Of a stretch of 64,000 bases of DNA, positions 2,581-60,869 are shown piece by piece (position 1 is the first letter of the stretch; each line of letters opens with the position of its first letter). A model generated the notes under the pieces. The model worked only from the letters and a program-made list of their open reading frames with translations. It was not told the DNA's origin and ran no database searches. Location of the stretch: assembly GCA_964016885.1 (NCBI GenBank), contig OZ024746.1, forward strand, positions 66,340,001 to 66,404,000, written 5' to 3'. The DNA is from Eledone cirrhosa. Lineage: Eukaryota. The position numbers were made by a program, and so were the translations under genes.

Positions 2581-2860
2581 TTTATATATATATATATATG
2601 TGTAAAACTTTATACTATTTGTTAACCTTGAATTATATATATGATGTAATTTTGTATATCTTTTGATGCCAATATATTATAATATTGTTATTATAATGTT
2701 ATTATATTGTTTATGCACACTGACAGGGAATTATATATTATATTTTATTTTTATTTTTATTCTTATTTTTATCTTTATTATATTATACTGTAAACAATAT
2801 ATATATATATATATATATTTAAATACTTAATAAGTGTTAGCTTGTGTTTGTACTAATGTA

Positions 2861-2949
<89 letters not shown>

Positions 2950-2954
<5 letters not shown>

Positions 2955-3447
2955 TTAAGCTTTTTATTATCACCATCTATTATATTATGTTATATTCTAT
3001 ATCGTACTGCAATTCTCGCATTATATTACCATTTGTATTTCAGGTTTTTGCATTATATAATATTTACGATGTGGGTTCAATTTGTTAATCAGTTCCTTGC
3101 TATGTGGTCTATATGTATGTTTGTAACTGCTCACTCTTAATCTTAGCCTACTTTTCCTTGATTACCTTCCTGGGCTTTAATAGATGTATACTCCATATTC
3201 TTCTGAGTTTTTGGCTTGTATTGGCCGATAGTGCTTCTTGTAGCTTTACTTGCCCTGATGAGTCCTTAATAGGACGAAGCATTGTTGGCTAATAAAGACT
3301 TTTGATGTATTGAAGGGTTCTTTGGTTTATTTTTTATAATTCTTCGGCTCTGTTTAATTACATTGATCTATATCTTATACTGTAATTTCTATAATATGAA
3401 GAGGGTGTTTAACTCCAATACACTCTAGTATTTTAATTCTTTTAATT

Positions 3448-3450
<3 letters not shown>
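2950..3450 (+). mobile_element. PLE-derived non-coding element with decayed HHR (3252-3289); same family as 45903-46340
   Basis: gcc-CTGATGA-gtccttaataggac-GAAG(sic)cattgtt-ggc, then AATAAA. The tail is homologous to about 46100-46300; flanked by (TA)n. Confidence 0.8.
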
Positions 3451-3518
<68 letters not shown>

Positions 3519-3519
<1 letters not shown>

Positions 3520-3714
3520 CGTAGGTCCCGGGTTGAGTCGGGGATAACCACAGTAAGTAAGGTACTCAATACATGGCAGAGTAAATTTTTTTTTATTTTA
3601 TAGAAGGAGCTTCTACAGGACTAGTACTGTTTCATTCAGATGAAATCTTCAGGAAGCTCCTGAAGATTTCATCTGAATGAAACAGTACTAGTCCTGTAGA
3701 AGATCCTTCTATAT
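3519..3714 (-). mobile_element. HHR-bearing fold-back element (arms about 3598-3653 / 3659-3714) in (TA)n
   Basis: Near-perfect palindrome with CTGAAGA-tttcatctgaat-GAAAcagta on both strands. Near-identical to the reverse complement of 46648-46848. Confidence 0.85.
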
Positions 3715-3734
3715 ATATATATATGTATTTATAC

Positions 3735-4424: not shown

Positions 4425-5130
4425 TGGGTGAGTGTGTATGTGTGCGTGCGTGTGTGTGCATGTGTATGTGAGTGTATATAAATAGATGAATAGATTACAT
4501 TGATAGAAAAGTTACATTTATGTGGGAAATATTAACAGTAACTGCCGAGATTATATTCCTGGTCTAAATATTATTGACCGGTGAGAGAGAGAACGGTTTG
4601 GAGAGCACCCCCACAAAACAACAAAGTAAATACAGGAATAAAAATATCTAGTGATTAATCTTATAGCATCACTTAGTTATAATGGAATTTGACAAGAGAT
4701 AAATTCATCATATAAAGTATCTCTTTATTTCCAATGCTTTTGTCGTAAGAAGATAATGGGGTCAGAAAGGATGCTGTTTGTCATAGGAATTATATTACAT
4801 ATAATTGGGCATTATCGGAAAAAGAAATTAGAATAGGATATATTAATGGGTACGTCTGATTCATTTTTGAATTATGTGAAACAAACATCTAAAAAAAAAT
4901 ATATATTTTCTATAATAAAAAGGGCAAATATGGGTGTATAACAAGTGAAGTGTGAATAATAATGAGAGAAAAGGGGAGGGATTGGAGTATTCTGTATATA
5001 CCTCACTCCCCAGGTGTGACAATTTTGAAATTATTTTGGTTTGGTCCATTCATGTGGATAAATGATGATTTAATAAATTCAACGATATAAATACACGATG
5101 TCATGATATATATATATATCCATATACAAA

Positions 5131-6437
5131 TCTTAAATACGTCAACATACACTCTAACCACACTAGGAGCATAATTAACTCAATAGTTAAAAGCGTCTCC
5201 AATAGAGTGTCCACCCTGTCGGCTAATAGAAATATCTTCAACCAGCACGCGGAATACTACAACTCCGCACTTGTAAACGCTGGTTACATTGAGAAGATTT
5301 CTTACATCGACCCACATAGAACCGTAACGCCGCTAAACATAACCGTACGCTTAGAAACGAACATAGAAGAAGTCACCACACCTAGGACAAATAATAACAT
5401 AAGACCCTCCGGAACCGTCAGGGCAGCCAGCGTCACACACAACTGTCAAGGAGATAAAGTCATACTCTCCAACCCCCAATAAGGACTCCAACTATCGCAC
5501 ATGTTTGCGTAGCAATAGAGACAAAAGACATAACGCCAATAGATTACTTGGAACGCCTATGACACATACGCCTGACCAAAACGCACCCAAAGTACCACCC
5601 AACCACAAAAACCTCACGACACACCGCAGAACCCGAAGTAGACCTGTCACATGGTACAACACCGCGTATGCTATACACGTCGTCACCAATATACGGGGAA
5701 CCTTCTTCAGGCCTCTCGAACAATCTTTTCCACGCACACATAAATGCCACAAGCTCTTCAATAGACACACTGTAAAATTCTCTTTCTACACAGCACCAAA
5801 TCTAGGCCACACAATAGCACACACTAATAGGACAAAAATACGAAAACACATGGTTGCCCCACAAAAAACCAACACCACAACCTAGAACGAGACCACACAC
5901 ACAACACAACACAAAAACCCACATACCAGTTCCACACCACATGCCACCAACCACCAACGTGCCACCACACCGGTCACACGCAACTGCAACTGCAAAAAAC
6001 GGGCCGAATGCCCACTAAACGGGGAGTGCCTCGTTAAAAACATTGTTTACCGGTGTGATGTCATAGCCGGCAATAAAGATTACTCATATATAGGTGCGAC
6101 ATCCACTACGTTTAAGGAACCCAGGTATAACCATAGAAGCTCATTTAAACATAGGCTGAAACGATCCCAAACCAGACTGGCCGATTTGATCTGGGATCTC
6201 AAGGACAGGAACATCGAACCCCAGAACCCGTGGTCAGTGAAAAGACGCGTGGCACAACTCCCCAGTGACAGAAACCACTGCAGGTTATGGCTGGCAGGGG
6301 CGGCAGAAATAATTAAATTAACATCTGCCATGAACTATAGGTCGGACATAATTGTCAATTGCAGACACACCAGGCTGAACACATTTTCCGCACAAACATT
6401 CGGCGGAGGGCCGCACACTAACCATGACCCAGCATAA
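5131..6437 (+). pseudogene. Penelope-like element ORF remnant (RT thumb, linker, CxCx5C, GIY-YIG endonuclease), 5'-truncated
   Basis: LKYVNIHSNH..SIVKSVSNRVSTLS..YNSALVNAGY; WYN..LFNRHTVKFS; CNCKKRAECPLNGECL..NIVY..YIG.T.TTFK..YNH.SSF; ..NCRH. One frameshift near 5480-5505 and one in-frame TAG at 5883. Confidence 0.9.
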
Positions 6438-10689: not shown

Positions 10690-10817
10690 ACAACAGTTAG
10701 TTCACCATACCGAGAACAATTGTTTCGCCCTATGGGGATCTTCAGCTCTGACTGGTCCGAGCTGAAGATCCGCATAATGTGAAATAATTATTCTCGGTAT
10801 GGTGAACTAACTGTTGT
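10690..10817. ncRNA. Fold-back carrying two divergent HHRs (minus 10710-10748; plus 10757-10797)
   Basis: gag-CTGAAGA-tccccatagggc-GAAAcaattgTT-ctc versus gag-CTGAAGA-tccgcataatgt-GAAAtaattaTT-ctc. Confidence 0.75.
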
Positions 10818-10927
10818 TAGTGAATTAACTGTTGTTACTTCTACCAAACATGTCCCATGGTCTGAGTGCTCTACCACTACGGATATTACCATCCAGTGTT
10901 CTACTCCAATCTCTCTCTCTCTTTCAC

Positions 10928-11500: not shown

Positions 11501-11505
<5 letters not shown>

Positions 11506-11660
11506 AACGAGTAGGACCCCGACGGCTGAGCTCAAGCTGTTTCGAACACAGCTCAGCCGTCGGGGTCCTACTCGTTCCTATTACCCACTCTACTACCCTA
11601 AGTATTGAGTACTTTGGTGCGTTATGTTCCACCTGGTTCCTTACCACATTTCCTCCGTTA
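11501..11660 (+). mobile_element. TA-nested short repeat with 5' fold-back (arms 11501-11532 / 11550-11581)
   Basis: ataggaacgagtaggaccccgacggctgagct ... agctcagccgtcggggtcctactcgttcctat; same family as the copies at 2430 and 48140. Confidence 0.75.
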
Positions 11661-12813: not shown

Positions 12814-13442
12814 CAAGGAATATTGAACTAGTTTCGTTGTTGTTACAACTCATCAGCAATATTTACCTATCTTCCGGCCTCTCTAGAGAATCGTAAAAGC
12901 ACATATCGTTATATGCTTTTTCTATGAAAATTAGTAGTGGGCAGACTAATTTGCATAGAGTGTGAGTAAGTACCGGTTCAACGGAGACGATAAAAACAAA
13001 TAACGAAACGAAATTAAATTTCGTTTCGTTTGTAACTCACTTTTGTATGACTGACGCTTAAACAATTAAGTTAAAGATGTACATCCATATATGTATACTG
13101 AAATACTAGTATGTATATGAATACACACACGTATACATATACGATTCTCTAGAGAGGCCGGAAGATAGGTAAATATTGCTGATGAGTTGTAACAACAACG
13201 AAACTAGTTCAATATTCCTTGTCTGGCTTTCTGGAGAATAGAGGAAAGGTGTTTCCTCAAAAACCAGTATGACTCTAAAAACCGGTTTGTCTGTGTGTTT
13301 ACATACAGAATAGCTGGCCACTCACAGTAAAGTGACCAGTGAAAAAACTTGGTACATCTACATATGTATACGTGTGTGTATTCATATACATACTAGTATT
13401 TCAGTATACATATATGGATGTACATCTTTAACTTAATTGTTT
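12814..13442. mobile_element. Interleaved double inverted-repeat element with two identical HHRs (minus 12819-12863; plus 13172-13216)
   Basis: aatattg-CTGATGA-gttgtaacaacaac-GAAActaGTT-caatatt. IR A is 12814-12895 / 13140-13221; IR B is about 13060-13140 / 13362-13442. Confidence 0.85.
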
Positions 13443-13501
13443 ATATATATATATATATATATACATTTATGCAGATATAACTTCATCATACACGTCGAAT
13501 G

Positions 13502-14069: not shown

Positions 14070-17045
14070 TAAAGTAAAATAAATAAGTCAAATGTTTAAA
14101 ATTTGGCTTCGTTTATTACTGTGACAGCCATCAGTGGCTGTGACCTCTTCAGGCAGTCCGAATTAGTGTGGTAGAGACGAGTACACATGTTGTTGAGGTG
14201 TTTAACTTTGTCAATACTTTGATATGTCCAGTTCCTGGTTGGGTTGTTATTTCACCGAGGAACTGGAATCATATGAATTTAAACAAACGAATTTCGACGT
14301 CAAAGGACATCTTCTCCTCTCCTTGGTCAGTTGTGGGTGCATTCCTCCGGCAAAAATCTATAGAAATTCGTTCTGAGGCGAGGCAATCTGTAGTGGTTGT
14401 TCTTATTATTGTTAAGTACGTCTGACCTCTACTCTTATGTTGGTAGTGGTGTTGGTGTTGGAGTCAGCTCAAAAAAATGATAAAGTGGTAGAAGGAATAA
14501 GATGGTAAAGGAACAAAATAAAATAAGATAATCAAATAAAATGTGTGTGTATTATATCCAATCTCAATGTTAGAAAGATTTGTAAGGTCATTCCTCCCAT
14601 TGGTCAGTTGTGAGAGCATTCCCCAGTCAAAAGTCTAGAGAAATTCTTTCTGGGGTGAGGCTACCTGTAGTGTTTCTTTTTACTATTGTTAAGTACATCT
14701 GACCTCTACCCTTATTTTGGTAGTGGTGTTGGTGCTGTGGTCAGCCTAGGTCTTTCTGCTGCTGACATTTAGAAGTATCGGTGTGTGTTTCTTCATCCAT
14801 CCTGCCACCATTTCTCGCCATGCATATGAAGAAATAGAAGGCAATAAAATGAAGAAAACAGAAATGAATAATAAATAGAAAATAATAGAAATATTAATGA
14901 AAAATGAAAAATGAAAAATGAAAAATGAAAAATGAAAAATGAAAAATAAAAATGAAGATTCAAATAAAAGAAAATGTGTGTGTGCTATAACCAATCTCAA
15001 AGTCAGAAGGATGTTGTATAAAGTGATAGGAGGAACAAGGTGGTAAAAGAATAAAACAAAATAAGATAATCAAATAAAATGTGTTTGTGTTATAACCAAT
15101 CTCAACGTTAGAAATATTTGCAAGGTCACTCCTCGCATTGGTCAGTTGTGAGAGCATTTCTCAGTCAAAAGTCTATAGAAATTCTTTCTGGGGTGATTCT
15201 ACCTGTAGTGTTTCTTTTTGCTATTGTTAAGTACATCTGACCTCTACCCTTATTTTGGTAGTGGTGTTGGTGCTGTGGTCAGCCTAGATCTTGCTGCTGC
15301 TGACATTAAGAAGTATCTGTGCGTGTCTTTTTTCATCCATCCTGCCACCATTTGGTGGTGGTGGTGGTGGGCGTGTGTGTGGGGGGGGGGGCATGCATAT
15401 AAAGAAATAGAAGGCAATAAAGGGAAGAAAACAGAAAACAAATGAAAAATAAAAAAAATGAAGATTCAAGTAAAATAAAATGTGTGTGTGTTATAAATAT
15501 GTTGGCCAAATTAGAAAGGCTGTGTCAGAATCAATCTCTAGGCTATCATGATGTCTGCTCAGCCTGGGTGGGGCCCTATGGCTTGAGGGCAGTTCCCAAC
15601 CTATGGTGTTGTTACTGCCCATATAGCTTGAGGGAGGTCAGGCCAAGAGGTGTCTACATGTTCTGGAGATGTCCCTATAGCTTGAGGGGAGTTCACATCT
15701 CAGTGTGTTTTTACTGTCCATATAGTTTGAGGAAGGTACCGGCCCTGAGTGTCTTATGTCCTGAAGAAGTCGATTCTGAGGTTTATCAGGCGGCTTCCAC
15801 CTCTTAGTATCTCGAGGGTCTCGTTCAGACATAATTTGCATATGCCAGATCCTCCTTTATCGGGTAGTACTTTCCTGATTATGGACCAGGCCAGAGAGTA
15901 CGGGGTCCTGTCCAGCTTAAGCTTCCAGATCAGGTCGGAAAGGGCCGTACTTTTCCTTTTGGCCTCCTTATTGGAGGAATGACGATGGTTATACCAACGG
16001 TCTTTAAAGCTCGTTGATGTGGCTCCTATGTAGAGGTGTTCGGAGTTGGGGGTTTTAACCCTACATCCGTATATTAGGTTCTTCGTAAGGCATTCATTAC
16101 TAAGGGGGCATGATTCGGGGTTTCTACAGTTGCAGAGGGTGGTCGACCTCTGCGTGCCTAGTGTGGGGTTCCCGTTACGTGTTACATGGTGGTCTTCCCC
16201 CGGGAACGGTAGGGTATCCCCGGGTCTGTTTGAGTTTATTGGGTGGGCACTGGGTCCCCCCTTCTCTCCTTCCACATTGTTCTGCTGGGTGGTTATATTG
16301 CCATCTTCTGGTTGCGTGCGGTTTTTAAGCCTACTCCTATGTGTTGCGCCAGGTTTCTCGTGGTAGAATACGAGAACTTCACAGTGTGTCTGTTGAAGAT
16401 ATTGTGGTATATATGGTCCCTAGGGAAGTATTTATCAAGTGCTCCAAAGAATGATCGGGCCAAGCTGTTCTTTAGGGCTGCTGAGTAGGGTGGGTTGTAC
16501 CACGTGATTTTTCTGCGTCTACTCCTATATGGGTGGGTTGGCGGCGTCGTGAGTTGTTGGAGAGTTGTTGGGTTGCTTGTGGTTACCGCATTGTTGCTTC
16601 CCCTTTGGGCGCTATGCGCTTTGATATCTTCACGGCCCGAATCTGTGGGTTGGTTTTTACCCGCGCTGGTTGATCCACTGTGGGGTGGTCCACCGTTACA
16701 CCCCCCACCCCCACCCACACACACGTGTCCTGCGGTTGGGGTCATCGGGTCCGGGGTGGTTAGCATCACCCCTCAGACTGCTACATATATTGGGTTTCTT
16801 CTCATGGTTAAGCGTATTCGTCACCATCGCCCGTGTGGTGGTGTCGGGCTCATGGTGCTTATTTGTTTCTGTTCTGCCTGTATTGTTAAGCTTCGCCCCC
16901 TCCCGGGCAACGCGGGTATGGGTGTCCGTTGTGCCATCCTCATCCCGGCGCCTCAGACTATATGTTATATTTTGGCCATGTGCTGCCTTATTTAGAGCTG
17001 CGCTGTAATATTCCGCGTAGTTATCGAAGATTTCCTTATTTGCGT
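14070..17045 (-). mobile_element. Penelope-like element, 5'-truncated at (TA)n, with long internally duplicated 3' UTR
   Basis: WYNPPYS..DKYFP..HNIFNRHTVKFSYS (ORF 16293-16769); CNCRNPESCPLSNECL..LIY..YIGATSTSFKDRWYNH..CKLCLNE..LIN (ORF 15754-16275). HHR remnant at 14117-14157. Confidence 0.92.
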
Positions 17046-17073
17046 ATATATGTATATATATATATATATATAT

Positions 17074-17141
<68 letters not shown>

Positions 17142-17273
17142 TATATACATATATATATATATGTTATATATATATATATACATATATATATACATATATA
17201 TATATATGTTATATATATATATATATATATATACATATATATATACATATATATATACATATATATATATGTT

Positions 17274-24656: not shown

Positions 24657-25286
24657 GTAATTTTGTTCTTACTAACGATTCTTTCTTTATTTATGCGATT
24701 ATTTAATGTAATGGTGTAAATTTTGATGATGATAAATAATGACATAATGATTCAAATGATAATATGATGAAATATAAACATGACCGAATCCAAGTAGTTT
24801 TAAATAAGCATTGGCGACAACAATTTAGATATGAACTCGGGATCCTAAGTTAGATATTAACTAAATAACAATTTCTGAAATATATCAATAGCAGAAACCA
24901 AGAATTCAAACAAGAAAGTCAATATGATGAGCTGTACTTATATTTGTAAAACCGATACGCGAAATATTTCCCTGCAAGTTTCTGCTCGCCATGCAACCTT
25001 GAGCAAATATCTTCTAGAAATCCATGGGCATGGGTTCACATTGGTAATGATGTTTGGAAACACAAATACAAGAACAAACTACACACACGCACACATACAC
25101 ACACACATACGCACACGCACACACATACGCAAGCGCGTATATTCATACTCGTAACAAAAGCGCTGCCTAAGGTTCTAAGGTCCAATATCTACTATATCTC
25201 CAGTATGTAAGAAAGATCAAAATTGTGCTGAAATGATGCTGTTAAAAGTAATGTCTGTTAAGATTCAAAACTATTTTCTTATATAA

Positions 25287-26620
25287 ATAGATTCAAGCAG
25301 CGTCTTTACATGCATACTCATTCTTTTCGTTACCCTCTTAGAAGGAATATGACGTCACTTTCAGCTTATATCTGGAGTTTAAAAGACAACCACACCCAAT
25401 TTAAGTTACACTGGGAGATCCTAGCTAGGGCTAGATCGTATAACGGAAATAAAAGACCATGTGACCTCTGCGCCGCTGAGGCCCTGGAAATACTCTACGC
25501 CACAGACCACATCTTAAACAAAAAGTCTGAGGCAATTTCGGCTTGTAAACATAAATTGCACAAAACTTTCCTGTATTACAGCCCCACATTATACCCTAAC
25601 GGATAGTACGATCTATACATGGATTTTTTACGTCTTGATGTGGTAGCTAAGTATATGTTTTGTTTATACCATTACTTATTTGCATAGGTAAGTATATATT
25701 ACCTGTATGGTTTGTGAAGGTACGTATACTTTCTCATACGTATATTTGATTGATTATGTTATGGCGTATACATTTTTTATATTTTCTGGTACATATGGTT
25801 TGGTTATGTGTATACGGGAGTTTTGCGTCTGCGTGTGTATGCAGGTTCGTACGTATGTAGGGTGTGTGTATATGTGTACTTCATGTTTTGGCTAACTTAC
25901 GTCTCCAAACATTTGTGTGTTTACATGTATGTATGTGGGTGCGCTTGTTATATACGTATTTATTTATTTATATACGTTTATTTAATTATCTATTTGTATA
26001 CACGCACACACACATATTTATATGTGCGTGGTTTTATATACCTATGGCAAGTGTTTTGGGTATGCTTGTGTATGTACGTATTTGAATGTGTGTATGGATT
26101 TATTTAATTTCTATTACCCCTGTATTGTATTTATTTACTTTATTCTTAACTCTGAAGCGGAGATTCATTCGGTTTCCTATTTAGAATTTAGTCTACGACT
26201 TCAGTTATACCATTTACGTGGTTTTGTCTTTGCGTGCAATTGTTCTCCACGCAACACATATGACGTATTATTTTCGTTTTTTCTGTTCATTGCCAGAGAA
26301 CGTCTCTATGAACCACCTAAGAGAACATTAGTCTACGACTTCTTTTATACCATAAACGTGGTTCTGTTTTTGCGCGTAATTGTTTTTCACCGCTCCTATT
26401 AATGACGTATTATATTGTTTTTTCCCGTTCTTTGCCAGGGAACGTTTCCACGAACCAAAGTATCGGCTTCCTGTCTTCCTCCAGTTGCAACGTTTTTTGA
26501 AATATCCACTTCTGCGTTTACAGATTGACTTTGTTAGTTTCAGAAGATCCCGTTAAGGGTGAAAGCAGCGATTCTTTGCTTAAACATTAAACTGTTATTT
26601 TAATAAATAAATATATATAT
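25287..26620 (+). mobile_element. PLE 3' fragment: GIY-YIG C-terminus (to 25606), 3' UTR and variant HHR (26537-26585)
   Basis: RFKQRLYMHTHSFR..TSLSAYIWSLKD..LHWEILARA..PCDLCAAEALEI..LNKKSE..SACKHK. The 3' part is near-identical to 62553-62910. Confidence 0.85.
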
Positions 26621-30993: not shown

Positions 30994-31394
<401 letters not shown>

Positions 31395-33966: not shown

Positions 33967-34044
<78 letters not shown>

Positions 34045-34045
34045 A

Positions 34046-34077
<32 letters not shown>

Positions 34078-34080
<3 letters not shown>

Positions 34081-34713
34081 TTGCGAGGTTTTTGATATGA
34101 AATCGTGTGACGAAACAAATATTGTTATACTTGGGGAGAGTCATATTTGTGTAATATTGCCAGAATTAATAACAGAACACACTCACTGTTTGGTTGGTTT
34201 TCGCTTTTCGCTTCTGTGTCTTTTATATCGGTAATCTAATTTATTCGGTCCTCAATGTTGCCATTGACTGACCAACGGTAAAAAATAATACAGATACAAT
34301 ATAGACACAAACACATATATATAGTTTATCAAAGTTCTTTCGTTGCACATCTGCAACATCGTCAGTGGTGCTATTGTTTCCTCCCGTTGCATTGTATTTT
34401 AGAATGTATGTATGAAAGATGGCGTAGAAAATACGATGCAACGGGAGGAAACAATAGCACCACTGACGACGTTGCAGATGTGTGTGCAACGAAAGAACTT
34501 TGATAAACTATATATATGTGTTTGTGTCTATATTGTATTTGTATTATTTTTTACCGTTGGTCAGTCAATGGCAACATTGAGGACCGAATAAATTAGATTA
34601 CCGATATAAAAGACACAGAAGTGAAAAGCGAAAACCAACCAAACAGTGAGTGTGTTCTGTTATTAATTCTGCAATTCTGGCAATATTACACAAATATGAC
34701 TCTCCCCAAGTAT

Positions 34714-34720
<7 letters not shown>
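34078..34720 (-). mobile_element. Large fold-back HHR element (arms about 34119-34400 / 34428-34720); HHRs at 34330-34367 (-) and 34461-34502 (+)
   Basis: ca-CTGACGA-(c/t)gttgca..tgcaac-GAAAgaacTT-tg in both arms; flanked by (TA)n. Confidence 0.85.
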
Positions 34721-34789
<69 letters not shown>

Positions 34790-34792
<3 letters not shown>

Positions 34793-34961
34793 ATTGCGGG
34801 TTGAATCGGAGGTAACCACAGTAAGTAAGGTACTCAATACATTGCAGAGTATAACAGTTTTAATATAGGTGAGATTCTACAGGACTAGAACTGTTTCATT
34901 CTTTAGAAATCATCCTGATGATTTCTAAAGAATGAAACAGTTCTAGTCCTGTAGAATCTCA
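34790..34961 (-). mobile_element. Fold-back HHR element, relative of the 3519 and 46648 copies (arms 34870-34914 / 34917-34961)
   Basis: Shared tail ggttga.tcgg.g.taaccacagtaagtaaggtactcaatacat; CTGATGA-tttctaaagaat-GAAAcagtt on + at 34915. Confidence 0.8.
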
Positions 34962-35019
<58 letters not shown>

Positions 35020-45174: not shown

Positions 45175-45246
45175 TAGTGGTATCTTATACACTCGTAATT
45201 TTAGACACGAGATTTACAGGGTTTATTTATACATATGAATTACTAT

Positions 45247-45439
45247 ATAATTGTTTCTACATTTGGCACAAGGCCAGCAATTTCCCAGTGCATTACTGGT
45301 ACTTTATTTTATCGACCCCGAAAGGATGAAAGGCAAAGTTAACCTCGGCGGGATTTGAACTCAGAATGGCAAGGACCGTAACTCTATGCGTCAAAGCATG
45401 GCGTCCGACCCTCTACCGATACTGCCAATCCACCGCCCT
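45247..45439 (-). mobile_element. SINE family 1 (full length)
   Basis: Reverse complement of the family-1 sequence. Confidence 0.85.
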
Positions 45440-45524
45440 GGAATTACTATATAATGCTCGGTATTTATACTTTGAGCTTGTTTTAATTGCAAGGTACCTA
45501 TATGAGTTAATAACTCTATATTTG

Positions 45525-45553
<29 letters not shown>

Positions 45554-45555
<2 letters not shown>

Positions 45556-46340
45556 TAAGATAGTAAAACAAAGAATCCTTTAATACATCAAAAGTTTTTA
45601 TTAGCCGACAATGTTTCGTCCTATTAAGGACTCATCAGGGCAATCAAAACAACAAGAAGTAATATCGGCAGATACAAGCCGGAAGCTCCGAAGAATATGG
45701 AGTGTACATACACTAAAGTCTTGCAAAAATATATGATAATAAAAATAAAAATAAAAATAATAAAAATATATAATGAGAATAACTAAGGATGTATATAACA
45801 TTAAGAACCATATTACAAATATAGTCCAAAGCAACTAACCTAAATCTAAACAAATTTGGTTATATAGAGCAGGAATTATATATAACACAATGCAATATAA
45901 CATGTTATATTACATTGTGTTATATATAATTCCTGCTATATATAACCAAATTTGTTTAGATTTAGCTTAGTTGCTTTGGACTATATTTGTAATATGGTTC
46001 TTAATGTTATATACATCCTTAGTTATTCTCATTATATATTTTTATTATTTTTATTTTTATTTTTATTATCATATATTTTTGCAAGACTTTAGTGTATGTA
46101 CACTCCATATTCTTCGGAGCTTCCGGCTTGTATCTGCCGATATTACTTCTTGTTGTTTTGATTGCCCTGATGAGTCCTTAATAGGACGAAACATTGTCGG
46201 CTAATAAAAACTTTTGATGTATTAAAGGATTCTTTGTTTTACTCTCTTAATTTTTTGGCTCTGTTTAACTGCATTGAGCTATACCTTTTACTGTCATTTC
46301 TATATTGCATTTGCATTCTTTATTCTATGTCCATACGTGC
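45554..46340 (+). mobile_element. Spacerless palindrome of about 700 bp (centre 45902/45903) with canonical HHRs at 45604-45641 (-) and 46164-46201 (+)
   Basis: gcc-CTGATGA-gtccttaataggac-GAAAcattGTC-ggc-t-AATAAA. The ORF track shows an identical 77-aa translation on both strands. Confidence 0.9.
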
Positions 46341-46355
46341 ATTGTTTTGGTTTTT

Positions 46356-46536
46356 TGGCAGTATCGGTAGAGGGTCGGACGACATGCTTTGCAGCAAAGA
46401 GTAACGGTCCTTTACGATCTGACTTCAAATCCCGCCGAGGTTAACTTTGCCTTTCATCCTTACGGGGTCGATAAAATAAAGTACCAGTAATGCACTGAGT
46501 AATTGCTGGCCTTGTGCCAAAAGTTGAAACAATTAT
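46356..46536 (+). mobile_element. SINE family 1
   Basis: Matches the family-1 sequence. Confidence 0.85.
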
Positions 46537-46591
46537 ACATATACAAACGTTTATACCTCATTACACAATGCTTCAAATGAACTATATCTTC

Positions 46592-46647
<56 letters not shown>

Positions 46648-46651
<4 letters not shown>

Positions 46652-46847
46652 ATTTTATAGAAGGAGCTTCTACAGGACTAGTACTGTTTCATTCAGATGA
46701 AATCTTCAGGAGCTTCCTGAAGATTTCATCTGAATGAAACAGTACTAGTCCTGTAGAAGCTCCTTCTATGAAATAAAAAAAATTTACTCTGCCATGTATT
46801 GAATACCTTACTCACTGTGGTTATCCCCGACTCAACCCGGGACCTAC

Positions 46848-46848
<1 letters not shown>
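46648..46848 (+). mobile_element. HHR fold-back element (arms about 46648-46710 / 46716-46778)
   Basis: Near-identical to the reverse complement of 3519-3714; flanked by (TA)n. Confidence 0.85.
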
Positions 46849-46930
<82 letters not shown>

Positions 46931-60034: not shown

Positions 60035-60869
60035 CGAGGTGGGTCAGAAAAGTTCCAGGACTAATGCCACAAAAGATTTATTTCAAACCCAAACTTCACA
60101 CTAAGAGTTTTCTCCTCCAAATTAACCCCCCTGGAGTCTAATGCACTTTTCCATCATTTTCCACAACGCTTGCATGCACTCCTGAAACGATTCTTCCGGC
60201 ATCCTCCGCAGTTCCGTCGTCACGGCCTTATTGATGTCGTCCACCTCTTCAAAACGGGTCCCTGATCACCGGGGATGACTGACCCTAGCAAGTCTGATTC
60301 GGTTTCAAGACGCTCGAGGATGTCCTGGCACACTTGCATGCGTCGACCCCTCCTGGTCATCGTTCACCAGTTTTGGCACCATCTTCGTGCAGACTTTCCG
60401 CATGTCCAAATCTTCAGTGAGAATCTTCCAGACGCTGTCCCGATTCATGCCCAGCTCATTTGCCATCAGTCTATCAGTCAGCCGACGATGGCTACGCACC
60501 ATCTTCCTGACGCGCTCAACGTTGACCTCAGTCCTGGTTGTTGAGGGCCTTCCACACCTCGGGTCATCTTCCACGTCCTCGCGTCCTTCTTTACACCTCT
60601 TACACCACTCAAAAATAGGTGCAGCAACCCAGTACTTCTGACGGAGTTTTCAAGTTTGTTCATTGCTCTGTGCTCACTGCTTGACGACCTGAAACAGAGG
60701 ACATGTATATAAAATTACGAAGAAAAAAGTTCCATCGCTGCAGAGAGCTAAAATTACAGTTACATAGTCCAGGGGGATTACTTTGAAGGAGAACTCTCTT
60801 ATTGCGTGAAGTTTGGGTTTGAAATAAATCTTTTGTGACATCAGTCCTGGAACTTTTCTGACCCATCTC

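What the first reader, a model, noticed from the sequence alone, without database searches (positions are those of the whole stretch)
45554..46251. Spacerless palindrome of about 700 bp with a canonical HHR and AATAAA pointing outward at each end
Seen: arms of about 349 bp with roughly four mismatches by eye, a CATG centre and an intact gcc-CUGAUGA-GUCC..GGAC-GAAAC-AUU-GUC-ggc on each strand. A transcript from either strand would form a long dsRNA hairpin. Long spacerless palindromes are usually unstable, so this one is probably young. Inference: it is a snap-back product of PLE reverse transcription and a potential siRNA or ADAR substrate. A non-palindromic relative at 2950-3450 has a dead core (GAAG).
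Basis: partly seen in the sequence, partly recalled or inferred. Interest (0 to 1): 0.75.

Follow-up and report, generated by a model that had tools for sequence, protein, structure and literature searches.

The report
Head-to-head Hydra Penelope retrotransposon insertion
The 700-bp palindrome is two shortened 3' ends of one common Penelope-type jumping gene joined head to head beside a TA repeat, a known and here ordinary kind of insertion, and its sister copies suggest both halves were likely copied from one RNA at two fixed start points rather than by fold-back.

Summary
Observation confirmed: 349-bp arms, 4 mismatches, CATG centre, a type I hammerhead match in each arm. It is the 3' end of a Hydra-clade Penelope-like element (unit about 4.7 kb; 2,320 exact hammerhead-core matches genome-wide). 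Inverted 5'-truncated copies, a one-sided tail and junction palindromes are published PLE features. Family copies end at one of two fixed points 100 nt apart: short (S) or tailed (T). Of 54 inverted pairs, 52 are one S plus one T (ours has a cut tail), 1 is S+S and 1 is unresolved. The arms of one insertion are sister copies, either arm can be the longer, and some share no sequence. That favours twin priming on one RNA over snap-back as the family rule; snap-back stays possible for this symmetric copy. Only about 1 pair in 8 is symmetric, and this centre is unique. By arm divergence it is no younger than spaced siblings. AATAAA is not selectively outward. No read spans the centre (inconclusive). 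Transcription, siRNA and editing are untested. This scan has reported the same architecture several times elsewhere in this genome. Ordinary; modest mechanistic value.

The parts
45529..45553 (.). (TA)n microsatellite target, abutting the short (S) end
   Evidence: the same junction in sibling copies
45554..45902 (-). Left arm: 5'-truncated PLE 3' end, ending at the family's fixed short end S (hammerhead +85)
45600..45644 (-). Type I hammerhead motif, left arm; predicted cut after 45607
   Evidence: 31.7 bits, below gathering 34; cut site mirrored
45901..45904 (.). CATG centre; head-to-head joint whose 2-nt AT fits either arm; found once in the genome
45903..46251 (+). Right arm: the same 349 nt of the element, sense on +
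46161..46205 (+). Type I hammerhead motif, right arm; helix III is 2 bp with a near-palindromic loop; predicted cut after 46198
46203..46208 (+). AATAAA, a family feature overlapping the end of helix I, 43 nt before the S end; function untested
46252..46304 (+). First 53 nt of the family's 100-nt one-sided tail; the last ~47 nt and its (TA)n are missing
46305..46600 (+). 3' end of a second, unrelated PLE family (3,026 matches), fused to the cut tail and split by the repeat at 46355-46537
46355..46537 (+). High-copy SINE-like repeat (class inferred by eye), inserted in the second PLE end
45246..45440 (-). Another copy of the SINE-like repeat; 92% identical to the right one, like other window copies, so not part of the palindrome
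2599..3450 (+). Single, tail-ended copy of a diverged subfamily; hammerhead core GAAG/GUU
   Evidence: 89% to L072

Best explanation
This is a 5'-truncated, two-armed insertion of a Hydra-clade Penelope-like retrotransposon at a (TA)n repeat, likely made when both ends of one DNA cut primed reverse transcription on the same element RNA at two fixed start sites. Shown: family identity, the two fixed ends S and T 100 nt apart, one S plus one T per insertion, sister arms, and a unique centre. Inferred steps: (1) the element's GIY-YIG nuclease cuts both strands in (TA)n; (2) one 3' end primes at S and the other at T on uncleaved RNA, the T cDNA displacing the S cDNA where they overlap; (3) here both cDNAs stopped at the same base (RNA end or collision) and annealed through a terminal AT, giving a spacerless palindrome; (4) later 4 substitutions arose and a deletion removed the distal tail, fusing it to another PLE end. 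The hammerheads and AATAAA are passengers of the element's 3' end. If the locus were transcribed through, they would be locked in a 349-bp hairpin. Family identity about 0.95; this priming route for this copy about 0.55-0.6.
For: Family: at least 40 near-identical copies among 2,115 candidates; 2,320 exact core matches; tandem spacing about 4.6-4.8 kb. The ORF has C-terminal GIY-YIG and Hydra diagnostics. S+T rule: 42 of 42 pairs in the first set (19 similarity-picked and partly biased to T, 23 position-picked; ours has a cut tail). In a later held-out set, 10 of 12 pairs were S+T. Position-picked pairs that could be resolved: 33 of 34, p 2e-9 against 0.5. Unpaired position-picked copies end in S (20 of 37) or T (14 of 37), so both ends arise alone. 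Arm lengths in 41 of 42 pairs (L063 unresolved; read by hand): S longer 17, T longer 19, symmetric 5, uncorrelated. L091, L092, L095, L077 and L093 have T pieces sharing no sequence with the S arm, and L069 shares about 4 nt. Arms share lineage: 0.47 family-polymorphic differences per within-locus pair (n=17) against 4.1 between loci (n=400). In vitro, an anole PLE cuts and extends both strands, starts at two internal RNA sites flanking the tail, and uses uncleaved RNA (PMC11167929, parts 1-2 read).
Against: Symmetric pairs are in excess (5 of 41 against 0.97 expected, p 0.002; 1 more exact case among 12), which fold-back predicts directly and twin priming explains only through a shared stop point. 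One S+S insertion (L136) breaks the rule, and it carries a local fold-back hairpin at its joint. Asymmetric and non-overlapping arms could be later central deletions of once-perfect palindromes. Sister arms also fit snap-back or conversion between arms. In vitro, start-site use did not differ between strands. The Pfam GIY-YIG hit of the L032 ORF is below cut-off and RVT_1 did not hit it. This locus has no independent read support.
Confidence: 0.58

Rival explanations
1. Snap-back (self-priming): one cDNA primed at the tailed end folds back at its 3' end and copies itself, stopping or being cut at S.
For: The centre is exactly symmetric; symmetric pairs are in excess; arms are sisters; a small hairpin lies at the L136 joint; PMC3846280 reads junction palindromes as self-priming (passages).
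Against: It cannot give S-longer pairs (17 of 41) or non-overlapping arms without later deletion. S ends occur alone next to (TA)n in 20 of 37 unpaired copies, which marks S as a start point rather than a stop. A 2-nt AT centre gives no hairpin loop to prime from (inference).
Confidence: 0.28
2. An asymmetric two-armed insertion was later made perfect by spacer loss or replication template switching.
For: Centres are rearrangement-prone: L053 has an insertion and L055 a T-run at the centre. This locus had a deletion on its right side.
Against: The arms are not homogenised (4 differences, 3 private). Making a perfect palindrome runs against the usual direction of decay (recalled knowledge).
Confidence: 0.07
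3. Fold-back read or assembly artefact.
For: No contig or read piece spans the centre in 4 laid runs (2 samples). None of the listed pieces spans it either.
Against: The arms differ at 4 sites, 3 of them private. The left arm stops at the family's fixed S end beside (TA)n while the right goes on into the tail; the flanks differ; the same layout recurs in 52 of 54 pairs. The runs may be other individuals (56% of words shared).
Confidence: 0.04
4. A selected dsRNA or dual-ribozyme device of the host (siRNA source or ADAR substrate).
For: A very stable hairpin is predicted on either strand; both cores are intact.
Against: The centre is unique and the copy is within about 1% of its family. The intact core is the family's commonest state (51 of 144 arms are identical over the motif). 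The ribozyme is paired away in the fold. No host exon was evident in the window's ORF list.
Confidence: 0.03

Closest known systems
Hydra clade of Penelope-like elements (Craig et al. 2021, PMC8557442; passages and supplement hits read), e.g. Hydra-1_Obim, Hydra-1/2_Amil, Hydra-1_Ajap
   Same: C-terminal GIY-YIG, RW(K/R), DKT, CxCX5C linker, CxxC and CxH around E and N, no CCHH, a hammerhead, (TA)n targeting; an inverted 5'-truncated copy with a tail at one end.
   Different: A different family from Hydra-1_Obim (different hammerhead; our core motif had 0 hits in the supplement). Unit about 4.7 kb against under 3 kb, with an Asn-rich insert between RT and EN and a ~2-kb 3' UTR. Tail 100 nt against 30-40.
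Adineta vaga Penelope elements (Arkhipova et al. 2013, PMC3846280; passages read)
   Same: Head-to-head inverted pLTRs, palindromes at the inverted junction, optional one-sided tail, Asn-rich inserts between RT and EN.
   Different: There the structure is read as self-priming; here pair statistics favour two priming events.
Anolis Poseidon PAc in vitro (Frangieh et al. 2024, PMC11167929; first two of four parts read)
   Same: Two internal RT start sites bounding the tail; both strands cut and extended; hammerhead cleavage not needed.
   Different: Different clade. That paper saw no strand difference in start site and, in the parts read, did not examine head-to-head products.
L1 twin priming (recalled, not read)
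   Same: Both strands of the target prime on one RNA and give an inversion.
   Different: L1 arms do not overlap and the second site is variable; here the second site is fixed and the arms usually duplicate the same sequence.
Metazoan type I and PLE hammerheads (Cervera and de la Pena 2014, PMC4209133; passages read)
   Same: 4-bp helix II; 1-2-bp helix III with a small palindromic loop, thought to need a dimer.
   Different: Here the two copies are on opposite strands, so one transcript holds one sense ribozyme and its complement rather than a dimer.

Membership tests
EN+ Penelope-like element | Single ORF with RT and GIY-YIG endonuclease in long family copies | tested here: met
   748-aa open frame in L032 with FDI, MGS and YRDD RT motifs and a C-terminal YIG. 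Pfam GIY-YIG E 0.0025 is below cut-off and there is no RVT_1 hit. RT identity rests on by-eye match to the Hydra alignment.
EN+ Penelope-like element | Partial tandems (pLTR), inverted 5'-truncated copy, one-sided tail | tested here: met
   Tandems in L039, L054, L068, L069 and L101; inverted pairs; tail on one arm
EN+ Penelope-like element | Hammerhead motif in the terminal repeat | tested here: met
   RF00163, 31.7 bits, E 1.1e-5, under gathering
Hydra clade | RWK-type and DKT motifs at the N-terminus | tested here: met
   RWR and DKT in L039 and L068 frames (definition)
Hydra clade | CxCX5C linker; CxxC and CxH around E and N; no CCHH between GIY and YIG | tested here: met
   L039 and L068 C-termini; L032 lacks the CxxC stretch
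Hydra clade | Insertion into (TA)n | tested here: met
   Ends abut (TA)n in nearly all arms listed
Hydra clade | Generally short (<3 kb) | tested here: not met
   Unit about 4.6-4.8 kb. The paper gives this as a tendency, not a diagnostic.
Hydra clade | RT phylogeny groups with Hydra | not tested
   No tree with reference PLEs was built
Active self-cleaving hammerhead | Cleaves in vitro as monomer or dimer | not testable with these tools
   The minimum-energy fold does not give the hammerhead fold; it is paired away in the full hairpin
Palindromic non-autonomous element (MITE- or foldback-like) that moves as a unit | The same centre recurs in many copies | tested here: not met
   The 20-nt centre pattern matches exactly only here; the 5 other one-mismatch hits are not family copies
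Non-LTR retrozyme | Short non-coding unit in head-to-tail tandem hammerhead repeats | tested here: not met
   The unit is 4.7 kb and coding

The most novel reading that the evidence does not exclude
Penelope-like elements integrate by obligate two-site twin priming: one RNP primes both ends of a double-strand cut on the same RNA, one at each of two fixed sites (here 100 nt apart). That would explain at once the inverted copy, the one-sided tail and the spacerless palindromes (both cDNAs ending at one point), and would replace the self-priming model.
Probability: 0.5. Interest if true: 0.5.

Novelty: new member of a known kind. Interest (0 to 1): 0.22.

Why it matters
The locus itself is one of many. 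How PLEs make their tandem and inverted structures is described as undefined (PMC8557442). A near-strict one-short, one-tailed rule with same-template arms turns that into a direct test with an in vitro system that already exists (PMC11167929). About a third of the copies sampled carry two inverted hammerhead arms (18 of 54), so such families could be a large source of potential dsRNA; this was not tested.

Tried and rejected
Rfam at gathering: no hit in the window; the miRNA hits at E-value level reflect only the hairpin. Sequencing runs: no RNA holder listed, which is no evidence on expression. Laying contigs and RAD reads: no piece spanned the centre; these are short contig pieces, possibly of other individuals, so the result is inconclusive. 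A loose end seen in run X4 at 46305 was not in the window; it proved to be the upstream part of the second PLE family, not an empty site. The two flanking SINE-like copies as an outer extension of the palindrome: rejected (92% identity, like unrelated copies). A palindromic element moving as a unit: rejected. AATAAA as the mobile RNA's poly(A) signal: unlikely, since usual cleavage 10-30 nt downstream (recalled) would remove both fixed ends. Hammerhead cut as the 5' stop of short arms: the short arms seen start elsewhere. Alignments for L001 and L105 ran past the centre and were not used; one search replaces them. Literature: 'Penelope + twin priming + inverted + tail' gave 1 unrelated review (listing only). 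Searches listed no paper whose title or abstract start states an S+T rule. The library lacks most subscription papers, and the bioRxiv supplement could not be seen.

Full report
Observation. The palindrome is real as described: arms 45554-45902 and 45903-46251, no spacer, four mismatches at 10, 36, 64 and 342 nt from a CATG centre. Each arm holds a type I hammerhead match (RF00163, 31.7 bits, E 1.1e-5, gathering 34). Helix II is 4 bp; helix III is 2 bp with a near-palindromic loop, the form described as needing a dimer (PMC4209133, passages). A transcript of either strand is predicted to fold into one long hairpin (-552.6 kcal/mol, z -66) that pairs the ribozyme away. AATAAA points outward once per strand and inward four times.

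What it is. The right arm has at least 40 near-identical copies among 2,115 candidates in the 3.0-Gb genome. The ribozyme core occurs exactly 2,320 times, and a subfamily pattern 805 times. [quoted passage not shown] The ORF meets the Hydra diagnostics of Craig et al. 2021: RWR, DKT, CxCX5C, CxxC and CxH around E and N, no CCHH, (TA)n targeting (definition; by-eye comparison with the supplement alignment). It is longer than the usual Hydra element. Pfam support is weak (GIY-YIG below cut-off, no RVT_1), and no tree was built. The palindrome consists only of the element's non-coding 3' end. Earlier notes call the host an octopus; I did not test that.

Two fixed ends. Arms end either 85 nt (S) or 184 nt (T) after the start of the ribozyme core, beside (TA)n. 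The left arm here ends at S. The right arm runs 53 nt into the tail, then joins the 3' end of a second PLE family (3,026 matches), itself split by a SINE-like repeat. The distal tail is absent from the window, so a later deletion is inferred.

Census. Among the first 100 exact core matches, 34 lie in 17 divergent pairs within 6 kb and none in convergent pairs. Up to 111 Mb of contig C1, where every locus was fetched, 18 of 54 loci have two inverted ribozyme arms and 5 more have an S arm with a short inverted tail piece. All 42 pairs of the first analysis are S plus T: 19 were picked by similarity to a tailed query and so are partly biased, and 23 by position. In 12 further pairs fetched afterwards as a test, 10 were S+T, 1 was S+S (L136) and 1 was unresolved (L133). 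Unpaired position-picked loci end in S (20 of 37), T (14 of 37) or otherwise (3 of 37).

Arm geometry. In 41 of the 42 pairs (L063 left out as unresolved; lengths read by hand), S is longer in 17, T in 19, and 5 are symmetric within 25 nt. Permutation expects 0.97 symmetric pairs (p 0.002), and lengths are uncorrelated. L091, L092, L095, L077 and L093 carry T pieces that share no sequence with their S arm. The two arms of a locus come from one lineage: 0.47 family-polymorphic differences per pair (17 pairs) against 4.1 between loci (400 random pairs), with a 65-nt repeat block masked. The centre of this copy is unique in the genome.

Mechanism. Fold-back of one cDNA is the published reading of PLE junction palindromes (PMC3846280) and fits this symmetric copy. 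It cannot by itself give S-longer or non-overlapping arms, and S ends occurring alone beside (TA)n mark S as a start site. Two priming events on one RNA fit all four patterns (S+T, sister arms, either arm longer, non-overlap). They also agree with the in vitro finding that a PLE protein extends both cut strands from two internal sites bounding the tail, on uncleaved RNA (PMC11167929). The spacerless centre would then come from both cDNAs ending at one base and annealing through a terminal AT. Against this reading stand the excess of symmetric pairs, the S+S exception with a local hairpin, and the chance that asymmetry arose by later deletion. I put twin priming at about 0.58 and snap-back at about 0.28 for this copy.

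Age and function. The subfamily is young (each arm 3 differences from the majority state, median 4), but this copy's 4 arm differences exceed the sibling median of 2. Lacking a spacer has therefore not marked it as especially recent. No RNA data were available, and no host exon was evident among the window's ORFs; whether it lies in an intron was not tested. dsRNA, siRNA and editing remain possibilities only. Reads did not span the centre, which is inconclusive; the internal asymmetry argues against an artefact.

Novelty. An inverted 5'-truncated copy with a tail at one end is described for PLEs in general (PMC8557442). The window holds several other hammerhead-bearing palindromes of other families. 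Earlier notes of this scan report the same architecture, and a two-primer reading, at other places in this genome; I had written my reading before seeing them, and they are not independent support. Verdict: a new family member of a known kind, ordinary as a locus, with a quantified S+T rule worth a bench test. Interest 0.22.

Noticed in passing
window 46640-46850, 3517-3715, 34790-34964: Another hammerhead-like family as ~100-130-bp palindromes with a one-sided tail ending in (TA)n, the same short-end/tail-end layout.
   Followed up: partly
window 10690-10910, 11501-11660, 33999-34789, 30994-31320: Further near-spacerless palindromes of unrelated families; those at 10.7 and 34.4 kb have hammerhead-like cores on both strands, and those at 10.7 and 11.5 kb a one-sided tail.
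   Followed up: partly
window 12814-13443: Nested inverted pieces with two divergent hammerhead-like cores and 100%-identical 82-nt arms.
   Followed up: no
window 5069-6437(+), 15754-17163(-), 25262-25606(+): Broken ORFs of other Hydra-like PLE families; 5886-6434 is 39% identical to the family ORF over the nuclease region.
   Followed up: partly
window 60305-60649(-): Mariner-like transposase remnant (recognised by eye).
   Followed up: no
L032:4665-6911, L039, L068: Asn-rich low-complexity insert of roughly 150 aa between RT and endonuclease, as in A. vaga Pen2a (PMC3846280).
   Followed up: no
L136 junction near 2370: The only S+S pair; a perfect ~20-bp hairpin sits at its joint.
   Followed up: partly
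L053 centre; L055 centre: Symmetric palindromes interrupted at the centre by a 760-bp foreign insertion (Helitron-like by eye) and by a T-run.
   Followed up: partly
L111-L118: The second PLE family (RYVDD, CxxC nuclease) also shows short and tailed ends in head-to-head pairs, with no canonical hammerhead seen near its end.
   Followed up: partly
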